Shown piece by piece: positions 4,217 through 17,987 of a stretch of 64,000 bases of DNA (position 1 is the stretch's first letter; every line of letters begins with the position of its first letter). The position numbers and the translations under genes were made by a program. This stretch comes from an uncultured Holophagaceae bacterium. Lineage in GTDB: Bacteria > Acidobacteriota > Holophagae > Holophagales > Holophagaceae. The notes beneath the pieces are model-generated. The model was given only the letters and a program-made list of their open reading frames with translations. It did not search any database and was not told the origin of the DNA. The stretch lies in NCBI GenBank assembly GCA_963816585.1, contig CAWFOJ010000138.1:3676-67675 (forward strand). Reading direction: 5' to 3'.

Positions 4217-4249
4217 GTTCTCGCCGGCCTTTTTAGCGGGCGCCGGAAC

Positions 4250-4345
4250 GACGAAACGAACAACAACAAAAAAATATCAATTCAATGATAAAAAAAATGA
4301 TTCATAGGATAATTTTAGTCATTTTTTGGTGCAAATTCCAACCAA
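4250..4345. promoter_or_regulatory. AT-rich promoter region of the cys operon with a 9-bp inverted repeat
   Basis: Sharp AT-rich island; AAAAAATGA (4292-4300) / TCATTTTTT (4319-4327) upstream of the cysteine synthase ATG at 4389. Confidence 0.55.
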
Positions 4346-4388
4346 TCCAGCGTTCAATGGGTCTAAACCGCACGTTGGAGATCCAACC

Positions 4389-5363
4389 ATGCGTCAAACG
4401 ACCCCGGCCCTTGAACCCGGGCGGACAGCCGCCTTCCACCCGGCCCTCCTGGACCACATCGGCGCCACGCCCCTCCTGCGTCTGGACCGCCTGGCCGCCC
4501 GGGAGCTTCCCCGGGGCGTGGAACTGCTGGCCAAGGCCGAGCACCTGAACCCCAGCGGCTCCCTGAAGGACCGCCCGGCCAAGGCCATGATCCTGGCGGC
4601 CTTGGCGGACGGGCGCCTGGCCCCCGGGCGGTCCATCCTGGACGCCACCAGCGGCAACGCCGGCATCGCCTACGCCATGATCGGCTCCGCCCTGGGCTAC
4701 CCGGTGACCCTGTGCCTGCCCGCCGACGCCACCCCCGAGCGCAAGAGGATCCTGCGCATCTACGGTGCCCGGGTGGTGGAGACGGATCCGGCCCAGGGCT
4801 CCGACGGAGCCCAGCGCCGGGCCCGGGAACTGTTCCGGGCCGACCCGGACCGCTTCTTCTACGCGGACCAGTACAACAACGACGACAACTGGCTGGCCCA
4901 CTACCGGAGCACCGCGGAGGAGATCTGGGCCCAGACCCGGGGCCGGATCACCCACTTCGTGGCCGGGGTGGGGACCTCCGGGCTGTTCACCGGAACGGTG
5001 CGCCGCCTGAAGGAGCGGCACCCCTCCCTGCAGGCGGTGGCGGTGCAGCCCGACGGCCCCGGGCACCGGCTGGCCGGGCTCAAGCACATGGCCACGGCCA
5101 TGGTCCCGGGCATCTACGACCCGGGGTTGGCGAATGCGCAGGCGGCGGTATCCAGCGTTGCGGGCCTGGCCATGACCCGGCGCCTGGCCCGGGACGAGGG
5201 GCTGCTCGCGGGCCCCAGCACCGGGGCCAACCTGGTGGCCGCCCTCCAGCTGGCCGCGGGCCTGCCGCCGGGATCGGTGGTGGTGACGGTGCTGTTCGAT
5301 TCTGGCGCCCGCTACCTGGGCGAATCGTTCTGGGAGGAGGATTCCTCCCGGGCCGACCCTTGA
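4389..5363 (+). CDS. cysM: PLP-dependent cysteine synthase (CysM-like)
   Basis: IGATPL, KAEHLNPSGSLKDR (PLP lysine), DATSGNAGIA, GVGTSG, EGLLAGPSTGAN; ATG at 4389 follows GGAG. Confidence 0.85.
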   Translation: MRQTTPALEPGRTAAFHPALLDHIGATPLLRLDRLAARELPRGVELLAKAEHLNPSGSLKDRPAKAMILAALADGRLAPGRSILDATSGNAGIAYAMIGSALGYPVTLCLPADATPERKRILRIYGARVVETDPAQGSDGAQRRARELFRADPDRFFYADQYNNDDNWLAHYRSTAEEIWAQTRGRITHFVAGVGTSGLFTGTVRRLKERHPSLQAVAVQPDGPGHRLAGLKHMATAMVPGIYDPGLANAQAAVSSVAGLAMTRRLARDEGLLAGPSTGANLVAALQLAAGLPPGSVVVTVLFDSGARYLGESFWEEDSSRADP

Positions 5364-5380
5364 CTTGCGGAGCCCGCGCC

Positions 5381-6118
5381 ATGCCCGCCGACGCCACCTT
5401 CCCCCCGCAGCCCGGCCCCGCCTGGGTGGAGGCCTGGAACCTGCGCCACCAGGACGCGGACGCCGAGGCCATCCTGGACGCCGCCCTGGAGGCTTTCCAT
5501 CCGCGCCTGGCCTTCGCCTGCAGCCTGGGCCTGGAGGACGTGGCGCTCCTGGACCTCGTCTGGCGGCGCGCGCTCCGGCCGCGGATCTTCTTCCTGGACA
5601 CCGGCCGGCTGCCCCAGGAGACCTACGACACCCTGGCGGCGGTGCGGGACCGCTACGGCCTGCCCATCGAGGCGTACTGCCCCCGCACCGAGGCGGTGCA
5701 GGCCCTGGTGGCGGCCAAGGGGCCCAATTCCTTCTATGGGAGCCTGGAGAACCGCCTGGAGTGCTGCCACCTGCGCAAGGTGGAGCCCCTGGCCCGGGCC
5801 CTGGCGGGGGCGGCGGCCTGGCTCACGGGCATCCGCCGGGAGCAGGGGGAGACCCGGGAGGAAGCCCGGCCCTTCCAATGGGACCCGGCCAACGGCGGGC
5901 TGGTGAAGGTGAACCCCCTGGTCCATTGGCGCCTGGACGACGTGTGGGCCTATGTGCGCCGCCACCAGGTGCCGTACAACCCCCTCCACGACCGGGGCTA
6001 TCCGAGCATCGGCTGCGCCCCCTGCACCCGCGCCGTGCGCCCGGGGGAGGACTCCCGGTCCGGCCGGTGGTGGTGGGAAGCGCCTGGAACCAAAGAATGC
6101 GGCCTGCATCGAAAGTAG
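5381..6118 (+). CDS. cysH: Adenylylsulfate (APS) reductase, thioredoxin-dependent, CysH family
   Basis: FLDTG, ECCHLRKVEPL, YPSIGCAPCT, GRWWWE, ECGLH; CC plus CxxC indicates the 4Fe-4S APS-reductase type. Confidence 0.93.
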   Translation: MPADATFPPQPGPAWVEAWNLRHQDADAEAILDAALEAFHPRLAFACSLGLEDVALLDLVWRRALRPRIFFLDTGRLPQETYDTLAAVRDRYGLPIEAYCPRTEAVQALVAAKGPNSFYGSLENRLECCHLRKVEPLARALAGAAAWLTGIRREQGETREEARPFQWDPANGGLVKVNPLVHWRLDDVWAYVRRHQVPYNPLHDRGYPSIGCAPCTRAVRPGEDSRSGRWWWEAPGTKECGLHRK

Positions 6119-6123
6119 AAGCC

Positions 6124-7035
6124 ATGAACTCTCCGTCCCTCCCCCTCACCCACCTCCACACGCTGGAAGCGGAGGCCATCCACATCCTCCGGGAAGTGGC
6201 CGGCCAATGCCGCAACCCGGTCCTGCTGTTCTCGGGGGGCAAGGATTCCGCCTGCCTGCTGCGCCTGGCCGAGAAGGCCTTCCGCCCCGGTGCCTTTCCC
6301 TTCCCGCTCCTGCACATCGACACGGGGCACAACTTCCCGGAGGTGATCGCGTTCCGGGACCGGCGGGCGCGGGAGCTGGGGGAACGCCTCATCGTGCGCA
6401 CGGTGGGGGAGTCCATCCGCCGGGGGCGGGTGGTGCTGCGGGATCCTGGGCAGTCCCGCAATGCGTTCCAGAGCGTCACCCTCCTGGACGGCATCCGGGA
6501 GTTCGGGTTCGACGCCTGCATCGGCGGCGCCCGGCGGGACGAGGAGAAGGCCCGGGCCAAGGAGCGGGTGTTCTCGCTCCGGGACGGGTCCGGGCAGTGG
6601 GATCCCCAGCGGCAGCGGCCGGAACTCTGGCACCTGTACAACGCCCGGTGCCGGCCCGGCGAGAACATGCGCGTGTTCCCCCTCTCCAACTGGACCGAAC
6701 TGGACGTGTGGCAGTACATCGACCGGGAAGCCCTGGAGCTGCCCAGCATCTACCTTGCCCACATCCGGGCGGTGGTGCGCCGGGGCTCGGCCCTGGTGCC
6801 GGTCACGCCCCTCACGCCGCCCCGGGAGGGTGAACAGCTGGAAAACCTGCGGGTGCGGTTCCGCACGGTGGGGGACATTCCCTGCACGGCTCCGGTGGAA
6901 TCCCAGGCTGCCGGCCTGGCGGACATCATCCTGGAGACCGCCACCGCCGAACTGAGCGAGCGGGGCGCCACCCGCCTGGATGACCAGACCTCGGAAGCAT
7001 CCATGGAATTGCGCAAGCGGGAGGGCTATTTCTGA
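6124..7035 (+). CDS. cysD: Sulfate adenylyltransferase subunit 2
   Basis: LEAEAIHILREV, LFSGGKDS, GGARRDEEKARAKER, RVFPLSNWTELDVW, SMELRKREGYF. Confidence 0.96.
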   Translation: MNSPSLPLTHLHTLEAEAIHILREVAGQCRNPVLLFSGGKDSACLLRLAEKAFRPGAFPFPLLHIDTGHNFPEVIAFRDRRARELGERLIVRTVGESIRRGRVVLRDPGQSRNAFQSVTLLDGIREFGFDACIGGARRDEEKARAKERVFSLRDGSGQWDPQRQRPELWHLYNARCRPGENMRVFPLSNWTELDVWQYIDREALELPSIYLAHIRAVVRRGSALVPVTPLTPPREGEQLENLRVRFRTVGDIPCTAPVESQAAGLADIILETATAELSERGATRLDDQTSEASMELRKREGYF

Positions 7036-8360
7036 TGATCGACGCGTGCGCTTCTCCCGCCGTCTCCGAACCGGGCCTCCTGCGCTTCATCACCTGCGGC
7101 AGCGTGGATGACGGCAAGAGCACCCTCATCGGGAGGCTGCTCTACGACAGCAAGGCCATCCTGGCCGACGCCCTGGATTCCCTGCACCGGGTGTCCAGCC
7201 GGCGCGGCGCCCGGCGCCTGGACCTGAGCCTGTTGACGGACGGACTGCAGGCGGAGCGGGAACAGGGCATCACCATCGACGTGGCCTACCGCTTCTTCGC
7301 CACGGCCAGGCGCAGGTTCATCCTGGGGGACACGCCCGGGCACGAGGCGTTCACCCGCTACATGGTCACCGCCGCCAGCACCGCGGACCTGGCGGTGATC
7401 CTGGTGGACGCCCGCCAGGGCGTGCGAACCCAGACCCGCCGGCACGCGGCCCTGGCCCATCTCCTGGGCCTCGGGCACCTGGTCCTGGCGGTCAACAAGA
7501 TGGACCTGGCGGGCTGGTCCCGGGCGGCCTTCGAAGCCATCCGGGAGGAGGGCCTGGCCCTGGCCCGGGAACTCGGCATTCCCCACCTGGAGTGCATCCC
7601 GTTGTGCGCCCTGGAAGGGGACATGGTGGTCACGCGGGGGCGGCGCCTGCCCTGGCACCAGGGGCCGACCCTCCTGGAGCACCTGGAATCCGTGCCCCTG
7701 GCCCCGGACCAGCCGGAGCGGCCGTTCCGGTTCCCGGTGCAGTGGGTGTGCCGCCCGGACCCGGACCGGGCCCCGGACTTCCGGGGCTACGCCGGGCGGG
7801 TGGAGTCGGGAACGGTGCAGGCGGGCGGCCGGGTGCTGGTGCTGCCGGGGCGCCAGGGCACCCGGGTGCGGGCCATCCATTTGGGGGACCGGCGCCTGGA
7901 GGCGGCCCGGGCCGGCCAGAGCGTCCTGCTGGAACTGGAGGACGCCCTGGCCGTGGGCCGGGGCGACCTGCTGGCGGACCCGGACGACCCGCCGGCCCTG
8001 GGCCGGGACCTGGAAGCGACCGTGTGCTGGTTCGCCCAGGCGCCGGTGCGGGCCGGGGCGCGCCTGCTGCTGCGCGCAGGCACCCGGGAGACCCGGGCCG
8101 GCCTGGTCCGGATCCGCTCCCGGCTGGACCTGGCCACCCTCAAGCCCCAGGCGGCGGACCAGCTGGTCATGAACGACATTGCCGAAGTGTCCCTGCGCCT
8201 GGAGCACCCGGTCCCGGCCGATCCCTATGTCGCCAACCGGCCCACCGGCGCCTTCATCCTGGTGGACGAGGACAGCAACGACACGGTGGCGGGGGGGCTG
8301 GTGAAGGGGTTCACCACAGGGACGGATGGGACGCCTCGACCTTGGGGTGCGCCTGCCTGA
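7035..8360 (+). CDS. cysN: Sulfate adenylyltransferase subunit 1 (GTPase; no CysC domain)
   Basis: LRFITCGSVDDGKSTLIGRLL, AEREQGITIDVAY, DTPGH, VNKMD, TGAFILVD. Confidence 0.95.
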   Translation: MIDACASPAVSEPGLLRFITCGSVDDGKSTLIGRLLYDSKAILADALDSLHRVSSRRGARRLDLSLLTDGLQAEREQGITIDVAYRFFATARRRFILGDTPGHEAFTRYMVTAASTADLAVILVDARQGVRTQTRRHAALAHLLGLGHLVLAVNKMDLAGWSRAAFEAIREEGLALARELGIPHLECIPLCALEGDMVVTRGRRLPWHQGPTLLEHLESVPLAPDQPERPFRFPVQWVCRPDPDRAPDFRGYAGRVESGTVQAGGRVLVLPGRQGTRVRAIHLGDRRLEAARAGQSVLLELEDALAVGRGDLLADPDDPPALGRDLEATVCWFAQAPVRAGARLLLRAGTRETRAGLVRIRSRLDLATLKPQAADQLVMNDIAEVSLRLEHPVPADPYVANRPTGAFILVDEDSNDTVAGGLVKGFTTGTDGTPRPWGAPA

Positions 8361-9718
8361 ACTCGTGCACGTAGGCGGGGTCCTTGAAGGCGGAGAGCTT
8401 GGCCCGCCAGTCCCGTCCCTTCTCGAAGACCTTGGTGTAGAGGGATTTACGGCTCAGCTCGAGGACGATCCGGTGGAAGGCGACCGGATCCGCCGGTTGC
8501 AGCCCGGCGCGCACGTGCAGGGGCCCGGTGAATTCCGGGGGCGCCGGGTGGTCCGCCGTGCCCGGGTTGATCACGTAGGCCCGCCAGGCCACCACCCGGC
8601 TCCACGGCACCATGCCCGGCACCGCCACTTCCTGCTCGTGCTGCCACATCCCGCGCAGTTGGGACGCATCCAGGCCTCCCGCCGCCAAGGCCACGTAGAC
8701 GTCCCCCCGCCGCTCCGGCTTGCCGACCGACGCGGACCTCGAGGCGTAATACCGCGCCACGTTCACGGAGCGGGTCAAGGACACGAAGCCGCCGTGGATG
8801 GTGCCGATCAGGTTCGAGGCCAGGTTGAAGGCCCGGCTCAGATCTCTGACGTAAGTCTGGGATTTGGGTGCGTCCATGATGGCTGCGAACGTGGGCCGGG
8901 CCGGGTTGTGCGGGTCCGGCCGCATGAGCTGGCACCAGAATCCACCGGTCTTGGCCAGCTGGCTGGGCTCGGCCGGGCTGCCGGTGAACAGGTAGGCGGT
9001 GACCCGGCGGGTCTTGGCTGGATCCCAATCATTGCCCTTGGCACTCAACAATTTTTCATAAACTGGCACCATGAGGTCCGCAGACCAGGCGGCCGAATGG
9101 ATCACCGGGCGTTCGATACCATCGATGTATTCGAACTCCTGACCCCTGGACTGGAAGCTGAAGTACCCTTCGGCGTACCCCGCCGAGCCATCCGGCGGCA
9201 CCTCCTCGAAATCCCCGAACCGAGAGGTGTCGGTCTTCAGGGCCTGAAGCTGGTCCTGGTAGGCACGGATGATGGGGCAATAACGGGTCATGGGCATGGC
9301 GGTCCACGAAGTCCTGGGGCAGCGGAGCCAGAGCGTCCTGCGGGGACGGGGGGGTGGCGGGCCCGGAGGGCGGCGTCTGGGACGGGGGGGTGGCGGGCCC
9401 GGAGGGCGGTGTCTGGGACGGGGGGGTGGTGGGCCCGGAAGGCGGTGTCTGGGACGGGGGGGTAACGGGCCCGGAAGGTGGCGTCTGGGGCGGGGGGGTG
9501 GCGGGCCCGGAGGGCGGTGTCTGGGACGGGGGGGTGGTGGGCCCGGAAGGCGGTGTCTGGGACGGGGGGGTAACGGGCCCGGAAGGTGGCGTCTGGTACG
9601 GGGGGGTGGCGGGCCCGGAGGGCTGGGCGCCGGTGGCCTGGGTTACCCCGCCGCCGCCTCCCGGACAGGCCAGGATGAGCCCCAGCAGCAGAGTCAACGG
9701 AAAGCCCGGCAAGCGCAT
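8311..9718 (-). CDS. Lipoprotein with Pro/Thr/Ser repeat stalk and C-terminal ADP-ribosyltransferase (enterotoxin A-like) domain; probable +1 indel near 9302
   Basis: Signal peptide with lipobox LILAC; 12-aa repeats; removing one C joins DFVD to AMPMTRY; C-terminal motifs YLFTG..P...KTGGF, GFVSLTRS, HEQEVAVPGMVPWSRVVAW. Confidence 0.7.
9343..9623. repeat. 36-bp coding tandem repeat, about 7.8 copies
   Basis: Unit GGGACGGGGGGGTGGCGGGCCCGGAGGGCGGCGTCT and variants start at 9343, 9379, 9415, 9451, 9487, 9523, 9559 and 9595; encodes PSGP[A/V/T]TPP[S/P/Y]QTP on the minus strand. Confidence 0.95.
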
Positions 9719-9840
9719 GGTCTGGTCCCAAGATTGTGGATAAAATATGTATTAATTATTTTTTGTCAAGAGAGGAAGGCAAGTTCCGGAACCCCTGGGC
9801 CTAGCCATGGATTCGTTCAGTCCTCACGGTTTTGATTTTT

Positions 9841-9892
9841 TTCGATCACAAACCGATTCGCGCTTGATCGAATCAAGCACGTTTGATTGAAT
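9841..9892. promoter_or_regulatory. Overlapping palindromes / putative operator upstream of the Fic-family gene
   Basis: GCTTGAT-CGA-ATCAAGC palindrome (9862-9878), TTCGATCA/TGATCGAA, and direct TTGATYGAAT at 9864 and 9883 in an AT-rich divergent intergenic region. Confidence 0.5.
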
Positions 9893-9919
9893 GAAAGGCA
9901 CCAACCCGGTCATCCGCCC

Positions 9920-11278
9920 ATGCCGCCATCCGGTCCCGCCGCCACCCGTGCCCGCCAGCTCATGGAAGCCTTGCGCCAGCGTCCGGAGGGCCTCACCCGT
10001 CAGGAACTGCAGGGCGCAGCCGGCCTGGGATCCCTGGACCCCCAGACGGTGCGCCGCCTGCTGGTGTTGCTGGTGCAGAGCGGTCAGGCCCGGCTGGAAG
10101 GGCAGACCAAGGCCCGGCGATATTTCCTGGGTCCAGCGGCGCCCACGGCCCCCGGCCGGGACCGGGCGGGGGGGGTGGGCCCAGGGTTGCCCCTGCCACC
10201 GCACCCGAATCCTCGCGTCCGCCGTGCCCAGGGTGGGGGGATCGCCACCGCGGCGTACCGCCCGGAGTTCCTGGCCGGGTACCCGCCGGACGGGGCCGGC
10301 TACCTGGGCCCGGAGCTCCTTTCCCGGCTGCCCCAGGGCGCCCATGGCGGGGGCGGCCTGCGGGCCCTGGCCGGACGCCGCCGCCTGCGGGTGGAACTGG
10401 CCTGGGGCTGCGGGCGCCTGGAGGGGCCCCGGTGGTCCCGCCAGGACCTGGAGCAGGCGGCCCAAAGGCCCGAACCGCCCCCGGGGCTCCCGTACGACGC
10501 CGCCCAGAGCCTGCTCAACATCCTGGCGGCGGCGGACTTCCTGTTGGATCCCGGGCGCGGGACCGGGATCGACGCCCCGACCCTGTGCAACCTGTCGGCC
10601 CTCCTGGCCGAAAACCTGCTCCCGGACCCGGCGGACGAAGGCCGCTTGCGCCGGAACCCCCTGGCCATCCCCGGAACCACCTACGGCCCGCCCGCCGACG
10701 CCGCCTTCGTCGCCGCCCAGTTCCAGGTCCTCCTGGACACCGCCCGGGGCATCCGGGATCCCTACGAGCAGGGCTTCTTCCTGCTGGTCCACCTGGCCTA
10801 CCTGCAACCCTTTCCCATCGGCAACGGGGCCGCCGCCCTGCTGGCCGCCAACCTCCCCCTGCTGGACCGGGGCCTGCCTCCGGTGACCTTGGAGGACGCC
10901 GCACCCGGAGCCCTGGCGGCAGCCCTGGCCGCCCTGTGGGAGGAGACCCGGATGGAGCCCCTGCGGGACCTGTTCGCGGCCTCCTGCGCCGGGGCGGCCC
11001 AGCGGTGGCGCGCCCCCTTGGCGCCCGCCCCCGACCCGTTCCGGTTGCGCTACCGGGAAGAGGTCCGGCTCCTGGTCCGGGAGGCGGTCCTGGAGGGCAT
11101 GGCCGAGGCGGCCGCCGGCCAGCGCATCCTGGCCTTCGCCCAGACCCGGCTGCCCAGGGAGGACCGGGCCGGGTTCCAGGCGGCGGCGCTGGCCGAACTG
11201 GCGGCCCTGCACGACGGCAACTTCGCCCGCTACGGCCTGCTGCCCTCCCAGTTCGCCGCCTGGAAGGCCAGGCGGTGA
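9920..11278 (+). CDS. wHTH-Fic family protein with degenerate catalytic motif
   Basis: N-terminal wHTH-like segment ending in GQTKARRYF; DPYEQGFFLLVHLAYLQPFPIGNG..LAANLPL, PDPFRLRYRE, LHDGNFARYGL typical of the long Fic subfamily. Confidence 0.8.
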   Translation: MPPSGPAATRARQLMEALRQRPEGLTRQELQGAAGLGSLDPQTVRRLLVLLVQSGQARLEGQTKARRYFLGPAAPTAPGRDRAGGVGPGLPLPPHPNPRVRRAQGGGIATAAYRPEFLAGYPPDGAGYLGPELLSRLPQGAHGGGGLRALAGRRRLRVELAWGCGRLEGPRWSRQDLEQAAQRPEPPPGLPYDAAQSLLNILAAADFLLDPGRGTGIDAPTLCNLSALLAENLLPDPADEGRLRRNPLAIPGTTYGPPADAAFVAAQFQVLLDTARGIRDPYEQGFFLLVHLAYLQPFPIGNGAAALLAANLPLLDRGLPPVTLEDAAPGALAAALAALWEETRMEPLRDLFAASCAGAAQRWRAPLAPAPDPFRLRYREEVRLLVREAVLEGMAEAAAGQRILAFAQTRLPREDRAGFQAAALAELAALHDGNFARYGLLPSQFAAWKARR

Positions 11279-11279
11279 T

Positions 11280-12137
11280 TCAGAGAAGCCGGGTGGGGGT
11301 GCGCTCCAGCACCGCTGCGGGCAGGAAATAGTCGCCCGCCAGGGGCGCCCGGGGGTCCACCGCATAGGAGGTGAAGTCCTCCACCCCCTCGGCGCGCAGC
11401 ACCTCCTCGTCGATGAAGAAGTTCCCGGTGCAGTCCCGGGCCGGGCGGGAGAGGATGGCGTGGGCCGCGTCGGCCATCATTTCCGGACGCCGGCTGGCCT
11501 GGCGCAGGGCTTCCCCGCCGGGCAGGTTGCGCACCGCGGCGGTGTCGACGAGGGTGAGCGGCCAGAGGGAGTTCACGGCCACCCCCTCGGCCCGGAATTC
11601 CGCGGCCAGGCCCAGGGTGCATAGGCTCATGCCCATTTTCGCCAGGCTGTAGGCCAGGTGGGGCGCGAACCACTTGGGCCGCAGGTCCAGGGGCGGGGAC
11701 AGGGTGAGGATGTGGGGGTTCGGGGCGGCCTTCAGGTGCGGCAGGCAGGCCCTGGAGCACAGGAAGGTGCCCCGCACGTTCACCTGGTGCATGAGGTCGA
11801 AGCGCTTGAGTTCCGTCTGCAGGGTGCCGGTGAGGGCGATGGCGCTCGCGTTGTTCACCAGGATGTCCAGCCCGCCGAAGGCGCTGACGGTGCGGGCCAC
11901 CGCTTCCTGCACCTGCTCTTCCGAGCGCACGTCGGCCACCAGGGGCAGGGCCCGCCCTCCGGCCGCCTCCACCTCCGCGGCGGCGGTGAACACGGTTCCG
12001 GGGAGCTTGGGATGAGGCTCCCGGGTCTTGCCCAGGAGGGCCAGGTTGGCCCCATCCCGGGCCGCCCGCAGGGCGATGGCCAGGCCGATGCCCCGGGTGG
12101 CTCCGGTGATGAGGAGGGTCTTGCCTTGCAGGGTCAT
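11280..12137 (-). CDS. Short-chain dehydrogenase/reductase (HSDL2-like)
   Basis: ITGATRGIG, PHPKLPGT, DILVNNASAI, YSLAK, GNFFIDEEVL. Confidence 0.92.
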   Translation of the reverse strand: MTLQGKTLLITGATRGIGLAIALRAARDGANLALLGKTREPHPKLPGTVFTAAAEVEAAGGRALPLVADVRSEEQVQEAVARTVSAFGGLDILVNNASAIALTGTLQTELKRFDLMHQVNVRGTFLCSRACLPHLKAAPNPHILTLSPPLDLRPKWFAPHLAYSLAKMGMSLCTLGLAAEFRAEGVAVNSLWPLTLVDTAAVRNLPGGEALRQASRRPEMMADAAHAILSRPARDCTGNFFIDEEVLRAEGVEDFTSYAVDPRAPLAGDYFLPAAVLERTPTRLL

Positions 12138-16409: not shown

Positions 16410-17987
16410 CTATGTGGCGGACGTGTCCAGGAGTTCCCCCACCTCCTGGCGCAACAGCCAGTCCTGGGGGAACTGGCCCAGTTCCTCCCGGATGGCCAGC
16501 AGCCGGGCGAGGTCCGCAGGCCCTTCCTGGCGCATGCGGGCCACCTCCCGGTACAGGGCCCCCAGGCGGGGGGGAAGGGCTTCGGCCTTGCGGCGCCGGG
16601 CCAGGGATTCGGCCTCTCCTTCGGCGAAGGCATCCTTGGCGCCGAACCAGAGGTCCCAGGCCTCCGGATCCCCCGGACCCCCGGCCACGCCGGGCAGGGC
16701 GCCGCCCAGGCACAGGAGCGCCGAGGCCGGCAGGTCCAGGGTCCGGCCCTGGAGTCGGCCTTCCAGGCTCTCCACCCGGAAGGCGTCCACCCGGGTACCT
16801 TGGATTTCCAGCCCCCCGGGCAGGCTCAGGCGGAACGGGCCGGGCCCCTCCCCCTGAGGCCGGGCTCCGAAGGCCACCAGGGCGCTTCCGGGCCAGGGCT
16901 CCGCCAGCAGGGCGCGCCCCTCCCGGGAGACCAGCGCCGGCCCTTCCAGGACCGCCAGCACGGTATCCAGGCCCTGGCCGCGGGGCGGACCGGGGATGAG
17001 CCGCGCCACCTGGCCGGTGACCTCGCGCCCGTCGTCCAGGATCAGGTGGTTCACCGTGCGGGCGCGCAGGGCCTCCTCCAGGCCGAAGTCGCCGCCCCGC
17101 TTCCAGGCCAGGGTGGCCTCGAACGCCTCGAGCACTTCGAACAGGTGGTCGAAGTCCCGGGCCACGAACAGCTTGGGCTGCATGTGGGTGATGTCGAAAT
17201 CCTGGTTCACGCAGTCCAGGGTCAGGGGAACGCGCTCCACCTGGTCGGTGCAGCAGTGGCGGGCCTCGCCGATGGAACTGAGCAGGCCGGCGCCGTAGAT
17301 GAGCGGCCGTTCGAGGGTGCCCACCAGGCCGTACTCGGCGGTCCACCAGTACAGGCGGCTGGCCTTGGTGCTCTCGCTCACGTAGGTCCGGCCGGCCAGG
17401 GCCGCCTCCAGGCGAGCCTGGGCCCGCTCCTGGTCAGCCGGGGAGGAGGACGGGTCCTCCTTCACCACGCTCAGGTTGCGGATGGCCTCGAACACCGACC
17501 GGTCCTCCCGGGAGGCGATCGCCTTGAAACCCACCACCCCGGCACGCTTGAGGTAGGCCGCGTAGCGGGCGTCCTTGAGGATGGGCGCGTGGCCTGCGCT
17601 CTCGTGGACGATGTCCGGCGCGGGGGTGTACTCGATGTGCTCGTGGGTGCGGATGTCCGAGGCGATGGCCAGGATGCCCCGGGCCTGCAGTTCGGTGAAC
17701 ACCGCCGGGGGGATGAAGCCCCGCACCGCCGCCGCGCCCCAGCCCAGGCGCGCCAGCCGGGCGTTCATCTCCTCCAGGCTGGGGATGCGCTCGACGCCGA
17801 TGCCGGTGGCGGCGAGCCCCTCCAGGTAGCTGGGGTGGGCCTTGTCCTTGAGGTGGGCGGTGAGCCGGCGCAGGATGTGCCGCCAGACCGCGTGGTCGCG
17901 TGGGGTATAGGCCTGGTAGTCCTGGTCCACCACGTACCGCGCCAGGTGGGGCGGGAGGGAGGCGGAGGGAAAGCCATCGGCGATCAT
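16410..17987 (-). CDS. phhA: Aromatic amino acid (phenylalanine) hydroxylase, long form
   Basis: YTPAPDIVHESAGHAP, YWWTAEYGL, IYGAGLLSSIGE, QPKLFV. Confidence 0.9.
   Translation of the reverse strand: MIADGFPSASLPPHLARYVVDQDYQAYTPRDHAVWRHILRRLTAHLKDKAHPSYLEGLAATGIGVERIPSLEEMNARLARLGWGAAAVRGFIPPAVFTELQARGILAIASDIRTHEHIEYTPAPDIVHESAGHAPILKDARYAAYLKRAGVVGFKAIASREDRSVFEAIRNLSVVKEDPSSSPADQERAQARLEAALAGRTYVSESTKASRLYWWTAEYGLVGTLERPLIYGAGLLSSIGEARHCCTDQVERVPLTLDCVNQDFDITHMQPKLFVARDFDHLFEVLEAFEATLAWKRGGDFGLEEALRARTVNHLILDDGREVTGQVARLIPGPPRGQGLDTVLAVLEGPALVSREGRALLAEPWPGSALVAFGARPQGEGPGPFRLSLPGGLEIQGTRVDAFRVESLEGRLQGRTLDLPASALLCLGGALPGVAGGPGDPEAWDLWFGAKDAFAEGEAESLARRRKAEALPPRLGALYREVARMRQEGPADLARLLAIREELGQFPQDWLLRQEVGELLDTSAT

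What the first reader, a model, noticed from the sequence alone, without database searches (positions are those of the whole stretch)
8311..9718. Lipid-anchored, stalked cholera-toxin-fold ADP-ribosyltransferase
Seen: lipobox (LILAC), Gly linker, eight 12-aa Pro/Thr/Ser repeats, then (after one probable indel near 9302) a ~330-aa domain containing YLFTGSPAEPSQLAKTGGF, GFVSLTRSVNVARYYA, GDVYVA and HEQEVAVPGMVPWSRVVAW. Established: R-S-E class ARTs such as cholera/heat-labile toxin A have LYRADSRPP...GG, GYVSTS and EQEVSALGGIPYSQIYGW in this order. The ExE is intact, but the NAD-binding Arg is replaced by Thr. Inference: a surface- or vesicle-displayed ART/NADase on a flexible stalk, with no B subunit, secretion system or obvious immunity gene nearby. 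This architecture is unusual in an environmental bacterium, and the less GC3-biased codons suggest horizontal acquisition.
Basis: partly seen in the sequence, partly recalled or inferred. Interest (0 to 1): 0.78.

Follow-up and report, generated by a model that had tools for sequence, protein, structure and literature searches.

The report
Membrane-tethered, disarmed cholera-fold protein family
This peat-bacterium gene encodes a predicted lipid-anchored protein on a variable-length stalk whose head has the cholera-toxin enzyme fold but, like almost all of its small family, lacks the arginine that grips NAD, so it is likely not a classical toxin, and this strain's copy is broken by a frameshift.

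Summary
Window 8311-9718 (minus strand) encodes a lipobox, Gly linker, 7.8 36-bp repeats and a domain whose model (pLDDT 86) matches TreX, Scabin, pierisin and heat-labile/cholera toxin A. Near-identical relatives are one ORF, so the fused architecture is real; stalk repeat number varies (2, 4, 5, 8). The break lies near 9280, not 9302. It seems real in this strain: a run that corrects four other window indels reproduces it. The missing Arg is a clade trait. In a 62-protein tree, 20 exported proteins (Holophagaceae-like contigs, one Bdellovibrio MAG) group together, and 19 lack the beta-1 Arg. Among 16 non-redundant members the rest of the RxDxR motif is also gone while Ser and ExE are invariant; 40 non-exported relatives keep both Arg residues. 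No B subunit, carrier or immunity gene is conserved nearby. The gene sits at a site that is empty in a congener, which supports mobility; codon bias does not. Best reading: a membrane-tethered ART-fold ribosyl-bond hydrolase with weak or shifted substrate use, closely rivalled by a non-catalytic binder. An active toxin is unlikely. No activity was tested.

The parts
9742..9769 (-). sigma-70-like promoter candidate (TTGACA-16-TATTTT), 24 bp before the start codon
   Evidence: 2 sites found in 8000-10200, shuffles 0.1 +/- 0.4; consensus match only
9665..9718 (-). predicted lipoprotein signal peptide with lipobox ending at Cys18
   Evidence: recalled PROSITE-like rule matched by 16 (strict) or 18 (relaxed) of 21 exported-type proteins and 0 of 41 others; SignalP not available
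9624..9664 (-). Gly-rich linker after the Cys
   Evidence: a C-G-G-G leader is a host idiom: 7 of 97 lipoprotein-like ORFs in this genome have 3 or more Gly there
9343..9623 (-). Pro/Thr/Ser stalk: 7.8 copies of a 36-bp (12-aa) repeat, copy number variable between strains
   Evidence: relatives of 399, 423 and 435 aa differ by whole units
9275..9290 (-). frameshift that splits the gene in this strain
   Evidence: N-terminal frame matches the intact relative down to 9281; run X1 contig 8518-9365 crosses it without a gap; runs X2-X5 are in frame
9007..9276 (-). clade-specific N-terminal subdomain (helix, FG..F motif, conserved Arg and Trp)
   Evidence: fold not tested on its own
8500..9006 (-). 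ART-fold core: RxDxR motif degenerate, Ser and ExE kept
   Evidence: model range 99-266 aligns to TreX at Z 10.8, rmsd 2.3 over 123 residues
8311..8499 (-). C-terminal helical extension and stop; the last 50 bp overlap the end of cysN on the other strand
8304..9900 (.). whole insert between cysN and the Fic/HTH gene, absent from congener G132
   Evidence: in G132 the cysN and Fic matches are 115 bp apart

Best explanation
The intact gene encodes a predicted lipoprotein with a variable Pro/Thr/Ser stalk and a cholera/Scabin-type ART-fold head that likely works outside the cytoplasm as a slow or substrate-shifted ribosyl-bond hydrolase rather than as a protein-modifying toxin; this strain's copy is split by a frameshift and is likely non-functional. 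Step 1, Sec export and lipidation at Cys18: inferred from the conserved lipobox. Step 2, the stalk holds the head off the membrane, with reach set by repeat number: the repeat variation is shown, its role is inferred. Step 3, the head keeps the Ser and ExE that activate the nicotinamide-ribose bond but has lost the RxDxR residues that hold the rest of NAD: shown by alignment. Step 4, it would therefore cleave NAD only weakly, or prefer smaller ribosides or NAD fragments in the periplasm or at the surface: inferred, untested. Export and the weakened site would explain why no immunity gene is needed. The gene moves between genomes as a lone cassette.
For: Fold: models at pLDDT 76.7 and 86.2; top wide-search rows TreX Z 10.8 (rmsd 2.3, 123 aligned), Scabin 10.4 (3.1, 149), pierisin 9.0 (3.6, 167), MTX 8.5 (4.2, 166), LT-A 8.5 (3.8, 137); Foldseek E about 1e-5. 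Clade: 20 rows at support 96/89, 19 of them at 99/96; beta-1 Arg absent in 19 of 20 but present in 40 of the 41 other rows that align there. Among 16 non-redundant clade members Ser, both Glu and the Asp of the [DN]xN motif are 16 of 16, although mean column identity is only 34% in the 18-row alignment. A pure relic would not be expected to keep these. dN/dS between the window and G134 is 0.34, like cysN at 0.39 (13 synonymous and 13 non-synonymous changes). A Lys in the beta-1 loop in 14 of 20 members could partly stand in, and Tne5 is an ART-fold NADase with a non-canonical Lys site (passages of PMC13285283). One Arg-less relative, P0092, is fused to a sulfatase/phosphodiesterase-fold domain behind a lipoprotein-like leader.
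Against: No activity data. Arg-to-Lys alone inactivates LT and NarE (passages of PMC4379533, PMC4440719), so losing the Arg outright may leave no chemistry at all. The window's species also lacks the stand-in Lys. ExE normally marks arginine-acceptor transferases (passage of PMC11606950), which a simple hydrolase would not need. Neighbourhoods are not conserved and show no salvage operon. The P0092 fusion is one long-branch case outside the clade. Arg loss and export are one or two evolutionary events, not 20 independent ones. I could not inspect model coordinates to see whether another Arg reaches the cleft.
Confidence: 0.4

Rival explanations
1. The head is a catalytically dead ART-fold binding module (pseudoenzyme). 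The lipoprotein uses the cleft and ExE loop to bind a surface or periplasmic ligand, for example an arginine-bearing protein, in the way the lipid-anchored but apparently inactive mammalian ART4 persists without activity.
For: Coordinated loss of Arg, Asp and the second Arg in the clade; Arg-to-Lys is inactivating in LT and NarE (passages of PMC4379533, PMC4440719); no immunity gene; ART4 precedent (abstract of PMC2576468); variable stalks are typical of surface binders (recalled).
Against: Both glutamates and the Ser are invariant in 16 of 16 divergent members; pseudoenzymes usually lose the catalytic Glu early (recalled).
Confidence: 0.33
2. It is an active arginine-specific ADP-ribosyltransferase or strong NADase displayed on the surface or on vesicles against competitors or protist grazers, with other basic residues replacing the lost Arg.
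For: ExE intact; clade-conserved Arg residues elsewhere (14 of 16 in the N-terminal subdomain) and the loop Lys; patchy distribution and strain-level loss fit conflict genes; one member is from a Bdellovibrio MAG; lipobox-anchored effectors are described in Amoebophilus (section 37 of PMC3482391, no ART domain listed there).
Against: The RxDxR motif, whose two Arg are each 40 of 40 in the sister group, is gone; there is no delivery domain, B subunit or immunity gene; a tethered head has no evident route to cytoplasmic NAD.
Confidence: 0.15
3. The family is a decaying remnant of a toxin with no current function, and the frameshift here is part of that decay.
For: This copy is broken; a real match occurs in only 2 of 157 genomes of the class; one 153-aa relative may also be truncated (L023).
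Against: Intact ORFs persist across members about 30-50% identical, with invariant residues; dN/dS is 0.34 to the closest intact genome copy, although 0.80 on only 10 changes to L016.
Confidence: 0.07

Closest known systems
Cholera toxin / heat-labile enterotoxin A1 (R-S-E clade, Pfam PF01375)
   Same: Fold; colinear beta-1, Ser and ExE motifs over residues 5-130; ExE type
   Different: No beta-1 Arg or RxDxR; 14-20% identity; structural match ends near residue 153; no B-subunit gene; lipobox and stalk instead; extra N- and C-terminal subdomains
TreX of Xenorhabdus bovienii (T6SS Rhs ART of FtsZ; PMC11606950)
   Same: Best structural match (Z 10.8, rmsd 2.3, 123 aligned) and best profile hit (E 2e-6); ExE
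   Different: TreX has the full R-S-ExE triad, an Rhs carrier and an adjacent immunity gene; none of these is present here
Scabin / pierisin / MTX (Pfam PF22596 Scabin-like)
   Same: Fold (Z 8.5-10.4); Scabin-like is the nearest Pfam family (9 of 11 members hit at E up to 1, best 3.5e-8)
   Different: Scabin has R-S-QxE with a Trp for guanine (table in PMC8120803); here ExE and no Arg; the window protein scores 16.4 bits against a cut-off of 27
Mammalian GPI-anchored ART4 (PMC2576468, abstract)
   Same: Concept: a lipid-anchored extracellular ART-fold protein with an eroded R-S-EXE motif
   Different: Eukaryotic, different anchor; no close relationship tested; here ExE is intact and the Arg side is lost
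Tne5 ART-fold NADase (PMC13285283, passages)
   Same: ART fold with a non-canonical site and hydrolase output
   Different: T6SS-delivered, has an immunity protein, relies on a Lys and hardly on its Glu; no homology tested

Membership tests
R-S-E (cholera-toxin-like) ADP-ribosyltransferases | ART split beta-sheet fold | tested here: met
R-S-E (cholera-toxin-like) ADP-ribosyltransferases | beta-1 Arg / RxDxR motif (Tox-ART-RSE, PMC3482391) | tested here: not met
   absent in the window protein and in 19 of 20 clade rows; present in 40 of 41 other aligned rows
R-S-E (cholera-toxin-like) ADP-ribosyltransferases | beta-2 Ser (STS-type motif) | tested here: met
   Ser in 16 of 16, followed by x-Thr/Ser
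R-S-E (cholera-toxin-like) ADP-ribosyltransferases | catalytic Glu / ExE | tested here: met
   both Glu in 16 of 16
R-S-E (cholera-toxin-like) ADP-ribosyltransferases | [DN]xN motif after beta-3 | tested here: inconclusive
   Asp in 16 of 16, but the Asn position is variable
R-S-E (cholera-toxin-like) ADP-ribosyltransferases | NAD-dependent transfer or hydrolysis | not testable with these tools
   needs an enzyme assay
AB5 toxins (cholera, heat-labile, pertussis-like) | adjacent B-subunit gene(s) | tested here: not met
   flanked by cysN and a Fic/HTH gene here and in L015/L016; other loci have unrelated, non-recurring neighbours
Polymorphic / T6SS ART toxins (TreX, Tre1) | Rhs/PAAR/VgrG carrier domain | tested here: not met
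   full-length members are 312-435 aa with a signal peptide
Polymorphic / T6SS ART toxins (TreX, Tre1) | adjacent immunity gene | tested here: not met
   the window gene ends inside cysN's 3' end; no small downstream gene recurs in loci L015-L023
Pfam Scabin-like PF22596 | score above the 27-bit cut-off | tested here: inconclusive
   window 16.4 bits; P0039 31.6 and P0040 34.5 pass, five other clade members scanned do not reach it or miss
Bacterial lipoproteins (signal peptidase II) | hydrophobic signal ending in a lipobox Cys | tested here: met
   pattern rule recalled from PROSITE; Cys column conserved
Bacterial lipoproteins (signal peptidase II) | lipidation and membrane location | not testable with these tools
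   needs labelling or proteomics

The most novel reading that the evidence does not exclude
An ART toxin fold was domesticated into a lipid-anchored ecto-enzyme that changed substrate: by dropping the residues that hold NAD's ADP half while keeping the Ser and ExE chemistry, it became a glycosidase for ADP-less ribosides (nicotinamide riboside, NMN or nucleosides), a surface salvage or signal-quenching activity not yet described for this fold, shared by peat Holophagaceae and predatory Bdellovibrionota.
Probability: 0.15. Interest if true: 0.82.

Novelty: new variant of a known kind. Interest (0 to 1): 0.52.

Why it matters
R-S-E ARTs are known as delivered toxins that need the Arg. This natural clade became lipid-anchored and lost the Arg side of the site at about the same point in the tree, while holding Ser and ExE fixed. 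Next to it is a sister group of about 40 uncharacterised R-S-E proteins with the motif intact. The pair offers a test of what the ART fold can do without its NAD-gripping Arg: a new substrate, residual NADase or pure binding. It also warns annotators that cholera-toxin-fold hits in peat metagenomes need not be toxins. The window's own copy is broken, so the value lies in the family.

Tried and rejected
Single-sequence search of PDB found nothing relevant (1 hit at E 1.7). The ESM Atlas gave no result, so language-model look-alikes are untested. No match in plasmids or viral contigs (0 of 8 candidates), PADLOC (0 of 18) or NCBIfam (1 unrelated weak hit). A search for longer fused forms (729-2080 aa) found none among 7993 scored candidates, which is weak evidence. 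No RNA holder was listed, so expression is unknown. The Scabin-like family search of the own genome rang nowhere, controls included, and is uninformative. Codon bias as evidence of transfer was rejected. The Fic/HTH neighbour as partner or antitoxin was rejected: it occurs at or near this locus without the gene in G132, G133 and G135. The invariant Asp as a newly gained compensating residue was rejected, because TreX and L027 have Asp there and it matches the published [DN]xN motif. Deep dN/dS values (0.55-0.87) were set aside because synonymous sites in these GC-rich genes are saturated. Three weak class-wide hits (G092, G020, G127) cover only the signal/Pro region and were dropped. Four fragments (P0041, P0043, P0047, P0049) and two probable spurious hits (P0062, P0088) were left out of the tree, and P0004 as redundant. 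No complex prediction was run, as no binding partner is claimed. Earlier scan findings: none returned. Literature searches listed no paper describing this family, judged from titles and abstract starts; the library lacks most subscription papers, and the supplements of PMC3482391 were not read and could list members.

Full report
Setting. The window is G000:C138:3676-67675 of a 74%-complete assembly. Its closest relative with the gene, G134 = L015, is titled an uncultured Holophagaceae MAG. Runs that hold the stretch and were laid on it are bog and peat metagenomes. The gene lies on the minus strand between cysN (7035-8360) and a Fic/HTH gene (9887-11278).

Observation. The N-terminal ORF (9056-9718) starts with a hydrophobic leader ending LILAC, a Gly run and 7.8 copies of a 36-bp repeat. 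The C-terminal ORF (8311-9297, P0001) holds the quoted motifs. A homologue search gave 10 proteins at 42-97% identity among 1660 candidates. Nine of the ten are single ORFs with leader, Cys, Gly/Pro linker and domain; one (P0008) lacks the N-terminus. Near-identical relatives of 399, 423 and 435 aa differ by whole 12-aa units, so the stalk is a variable tandem repeat. G134 and L016 carry the intact gene in the same synteny.

The break. tblastn with the intact G134 protein shows the N-terminal frame matching down to 9281 and the C-terminal frame taking over there. The window assembly has errors: run X1, 99+% alike in its long pieces, differs from it by indels at 2819, 3127, 3150 and 12360, inside housekeeping genes. 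Yet X1's contig 8518-9365 (depth about 7) crosses the break with no gap, while peat runs X2-X5 are in frame. The break is therefore probably real in this population. X1 may be the source sample and only contigs were available, so I put this at about 75%. The products would be a lipoprotein stalk with a junk tail and, at most, an unexported head from ATG 9297.

Fold. P0001 alone gave a weak Scabin-like hit (E 0.009). Of 11 aligned members, 9 hit Scabin-like and 5 hit Enterotoxin_a at E up to 1 (best 3.5e-8 and 2.7e-5). A 14-row profile, which included two distant Arg-bearing relatives, aligned with TreX (2e-6) and colinearly with LT-A/CT-A residues 5-130 (3e-6 to 9e-5). Models reached pLDDT 76.7 and 86.2 (pTM 0.90). 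Against 48,161 chains the first 11 rows were all R-S-E ARTs, led by TreX Z 10.8 (rmsd 2.3, 123 aligned), Scabin 10.4 (3.1, 149), pierisin 9.0 (3.6, 167), MTX 8.5 and LT-A 8.5. Foldseek agreed. The flanking subdomains were not searched on their own.

Family. The exhaustive search returned 59 clusters at E up to 0.001. I built a tree from the ART core (P0001 residues 95-285) of 62 proteins, leaving out four fragments, two probable spurious hits and one redundant sequence. Twenty rows, including the window, form a group (96/89; 19 of them 99/96). All 18 with an N-terminus have a signal-like leader, and nearly all have a lipobox. A recalled PROSITE-like rule matched 16-18 of 21 exported-type proteins and 0 of 41 others (that group was partly defined by the leader, so the tree is the independent test). 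At the beta-1 Arg position the 20 rows have T10, A3, G3, I, V, H and one R; that one, P0080, has DxHE and an otherwise eroded motif. Of the other 42 rows, 40 have Arg and one is a gap; the last, P0092, lacks Arg and also has a lipoprotein-like leader. Column counts for 16 non-redundant clade members against 40 others: first Arg lost versus 40 of 40; Asp/Glu at +2 lost versus 38 of 40; second Arg lost versus 40 of 40; a loop Arg mostly lost versus 38 of 40; Ser, both Glu and the [DN]xN Asp 16 of 16. The Arg column was among the 183 tree columns, and kin share traits, so this is one or two events and not a statistical correlation. One deeper member is named from a Bdellovibrio MAG; the others are unnamed.

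What the literature says. The review PMC8120803 (passages) states that the Arg positions NAD, the STS motif stabilises the pocket and the Glu promotes hydrolysis. LT R7K and NarE R7K are inactive (passages of PMC4379533, PMC4440719). ExE typifies arginine-modifying ARTs (passage of PMC11606950). PMC3482391 (passages, sections 32 and 37) defines Tox-ART-RSE as RxDxR, S, [DN]xN, E, and describes lipobox-anchored effectors in Amoebophilus without listing an ART among them. Tne5 shows an ART fold hydrolysing NAD with a non-canonical site (passages of PMC13285283). Mammalian ART4 is a lipid-anchored, apparently inactive ART (abstract of PMC2576468). That the Arg contacts NAD's phosphates is recalled knowledge, not from a call.

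Context and mobility. Real matches occur in 2 of 157 genomes of the class, and in none of 400 others sampled across the phylum. In G132 cysN is followed by the Fic gene 115 bp later, with no room for this gene. In the window cysN has lost the stop seen in G132 and runs 50 bp into the gene's 3' end. In G125, G126, G127, G128, G130 and G131 serS lies within about 300 bp of the SDR gene, so the whole interval is a hot spot. Other members sit beside cobalamin genes and rdgB, an Fe-hydrogenase and MoaE, a sugar-binding protein, or an NHL protein, with nothing recurring between unrelated loci. GC3 is unremarkable. dN/dS to G134 is 0.34, against 0.39 for cysN, on small counts; to L016 it is 0.80 on 10 changes.

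Mechanism. Shown: fold, fused architecture in relatives, variable stalk, clade-wide motif erosion with Ser and ExE fixed, and lone-cassette mobility. Inferred: lipidation, location and any activity. Invariant glutamates across a divergent clade argue for retained chemistry at a ribose C1'. Loss of RxDxR argues against normal NAD binding. I therefore favour a tethered, slow or substrate-shifted ribosyl hydrolase (0.40) over a dead binder (0.33), an active toxin (0.15) and a relic (0.07). It works like an ART in fold and half of its site, but it fails the Arg test, so it should not be filed as a cholera-type toxin.

Verdict. Observation confirmed, interpretation partly supported, new variant of a known kind, interest 0.52. 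The score reflects an apparently undescribed family with a clean evolutionary contrast, discounted because it is rare, untested and broken in this strain.

Noticed in passing
window 8304-8360: cysN lacks the stop seen in congener G132 and gains a 16-residue tail read off the antisense end of the inserted gene.
   Followed up: yes
window 2819, 3127, 3150, 12360: Indels in asparaginase, serS and the SurA/PpiD-like gene where run X1 reads differently: assembly errors, so other split genes in this window are suspect.
   Followed up: yes
window 4220-11280: The serS-SDR interval is an insertion hot spot: empty in six congeners, and holding cys genes, Fic and other cargo in G132.
   Followed up: partly
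window 9887-11278: The HTH-Fic protein has an eroded Fic motif (Gln for the catalytic His, final Arg residues missing, against the recalled consensus); related genes occur in 6 of 11 congeners.
   Followed up: partly
P0092 (1015 aa): Lipoprotein-like leader plus sulfatase/phosphodiesterase-fold domain plus Arg-less ART-fold domain in one chain.
   Followed up: partly
P0014, P0015, P0050-P0091; L025:3096-4742; L026:4493-6594: About 40 uncharacterised R-S-E proteins with intact RxDxR and ExE, long N-terminal regions and no lipobox; L025 lies before a giant DUF6603 gene and L026 carries Ig-like domains.
   Followed up: partly
L017:4947-5429 and L018:5104-5628: A divergent small gene for another predicted Pro-linker lipoprotein without a Pfam match sits head to head with the family gene in one sub-lineage.
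   Followed up: no
window 16410-17987: A 525-aa minus-strand ORF that by recalled motifs resembles an aromatic amino-acid hydroxylase with a long C-terminal extension.
   Followed up: no
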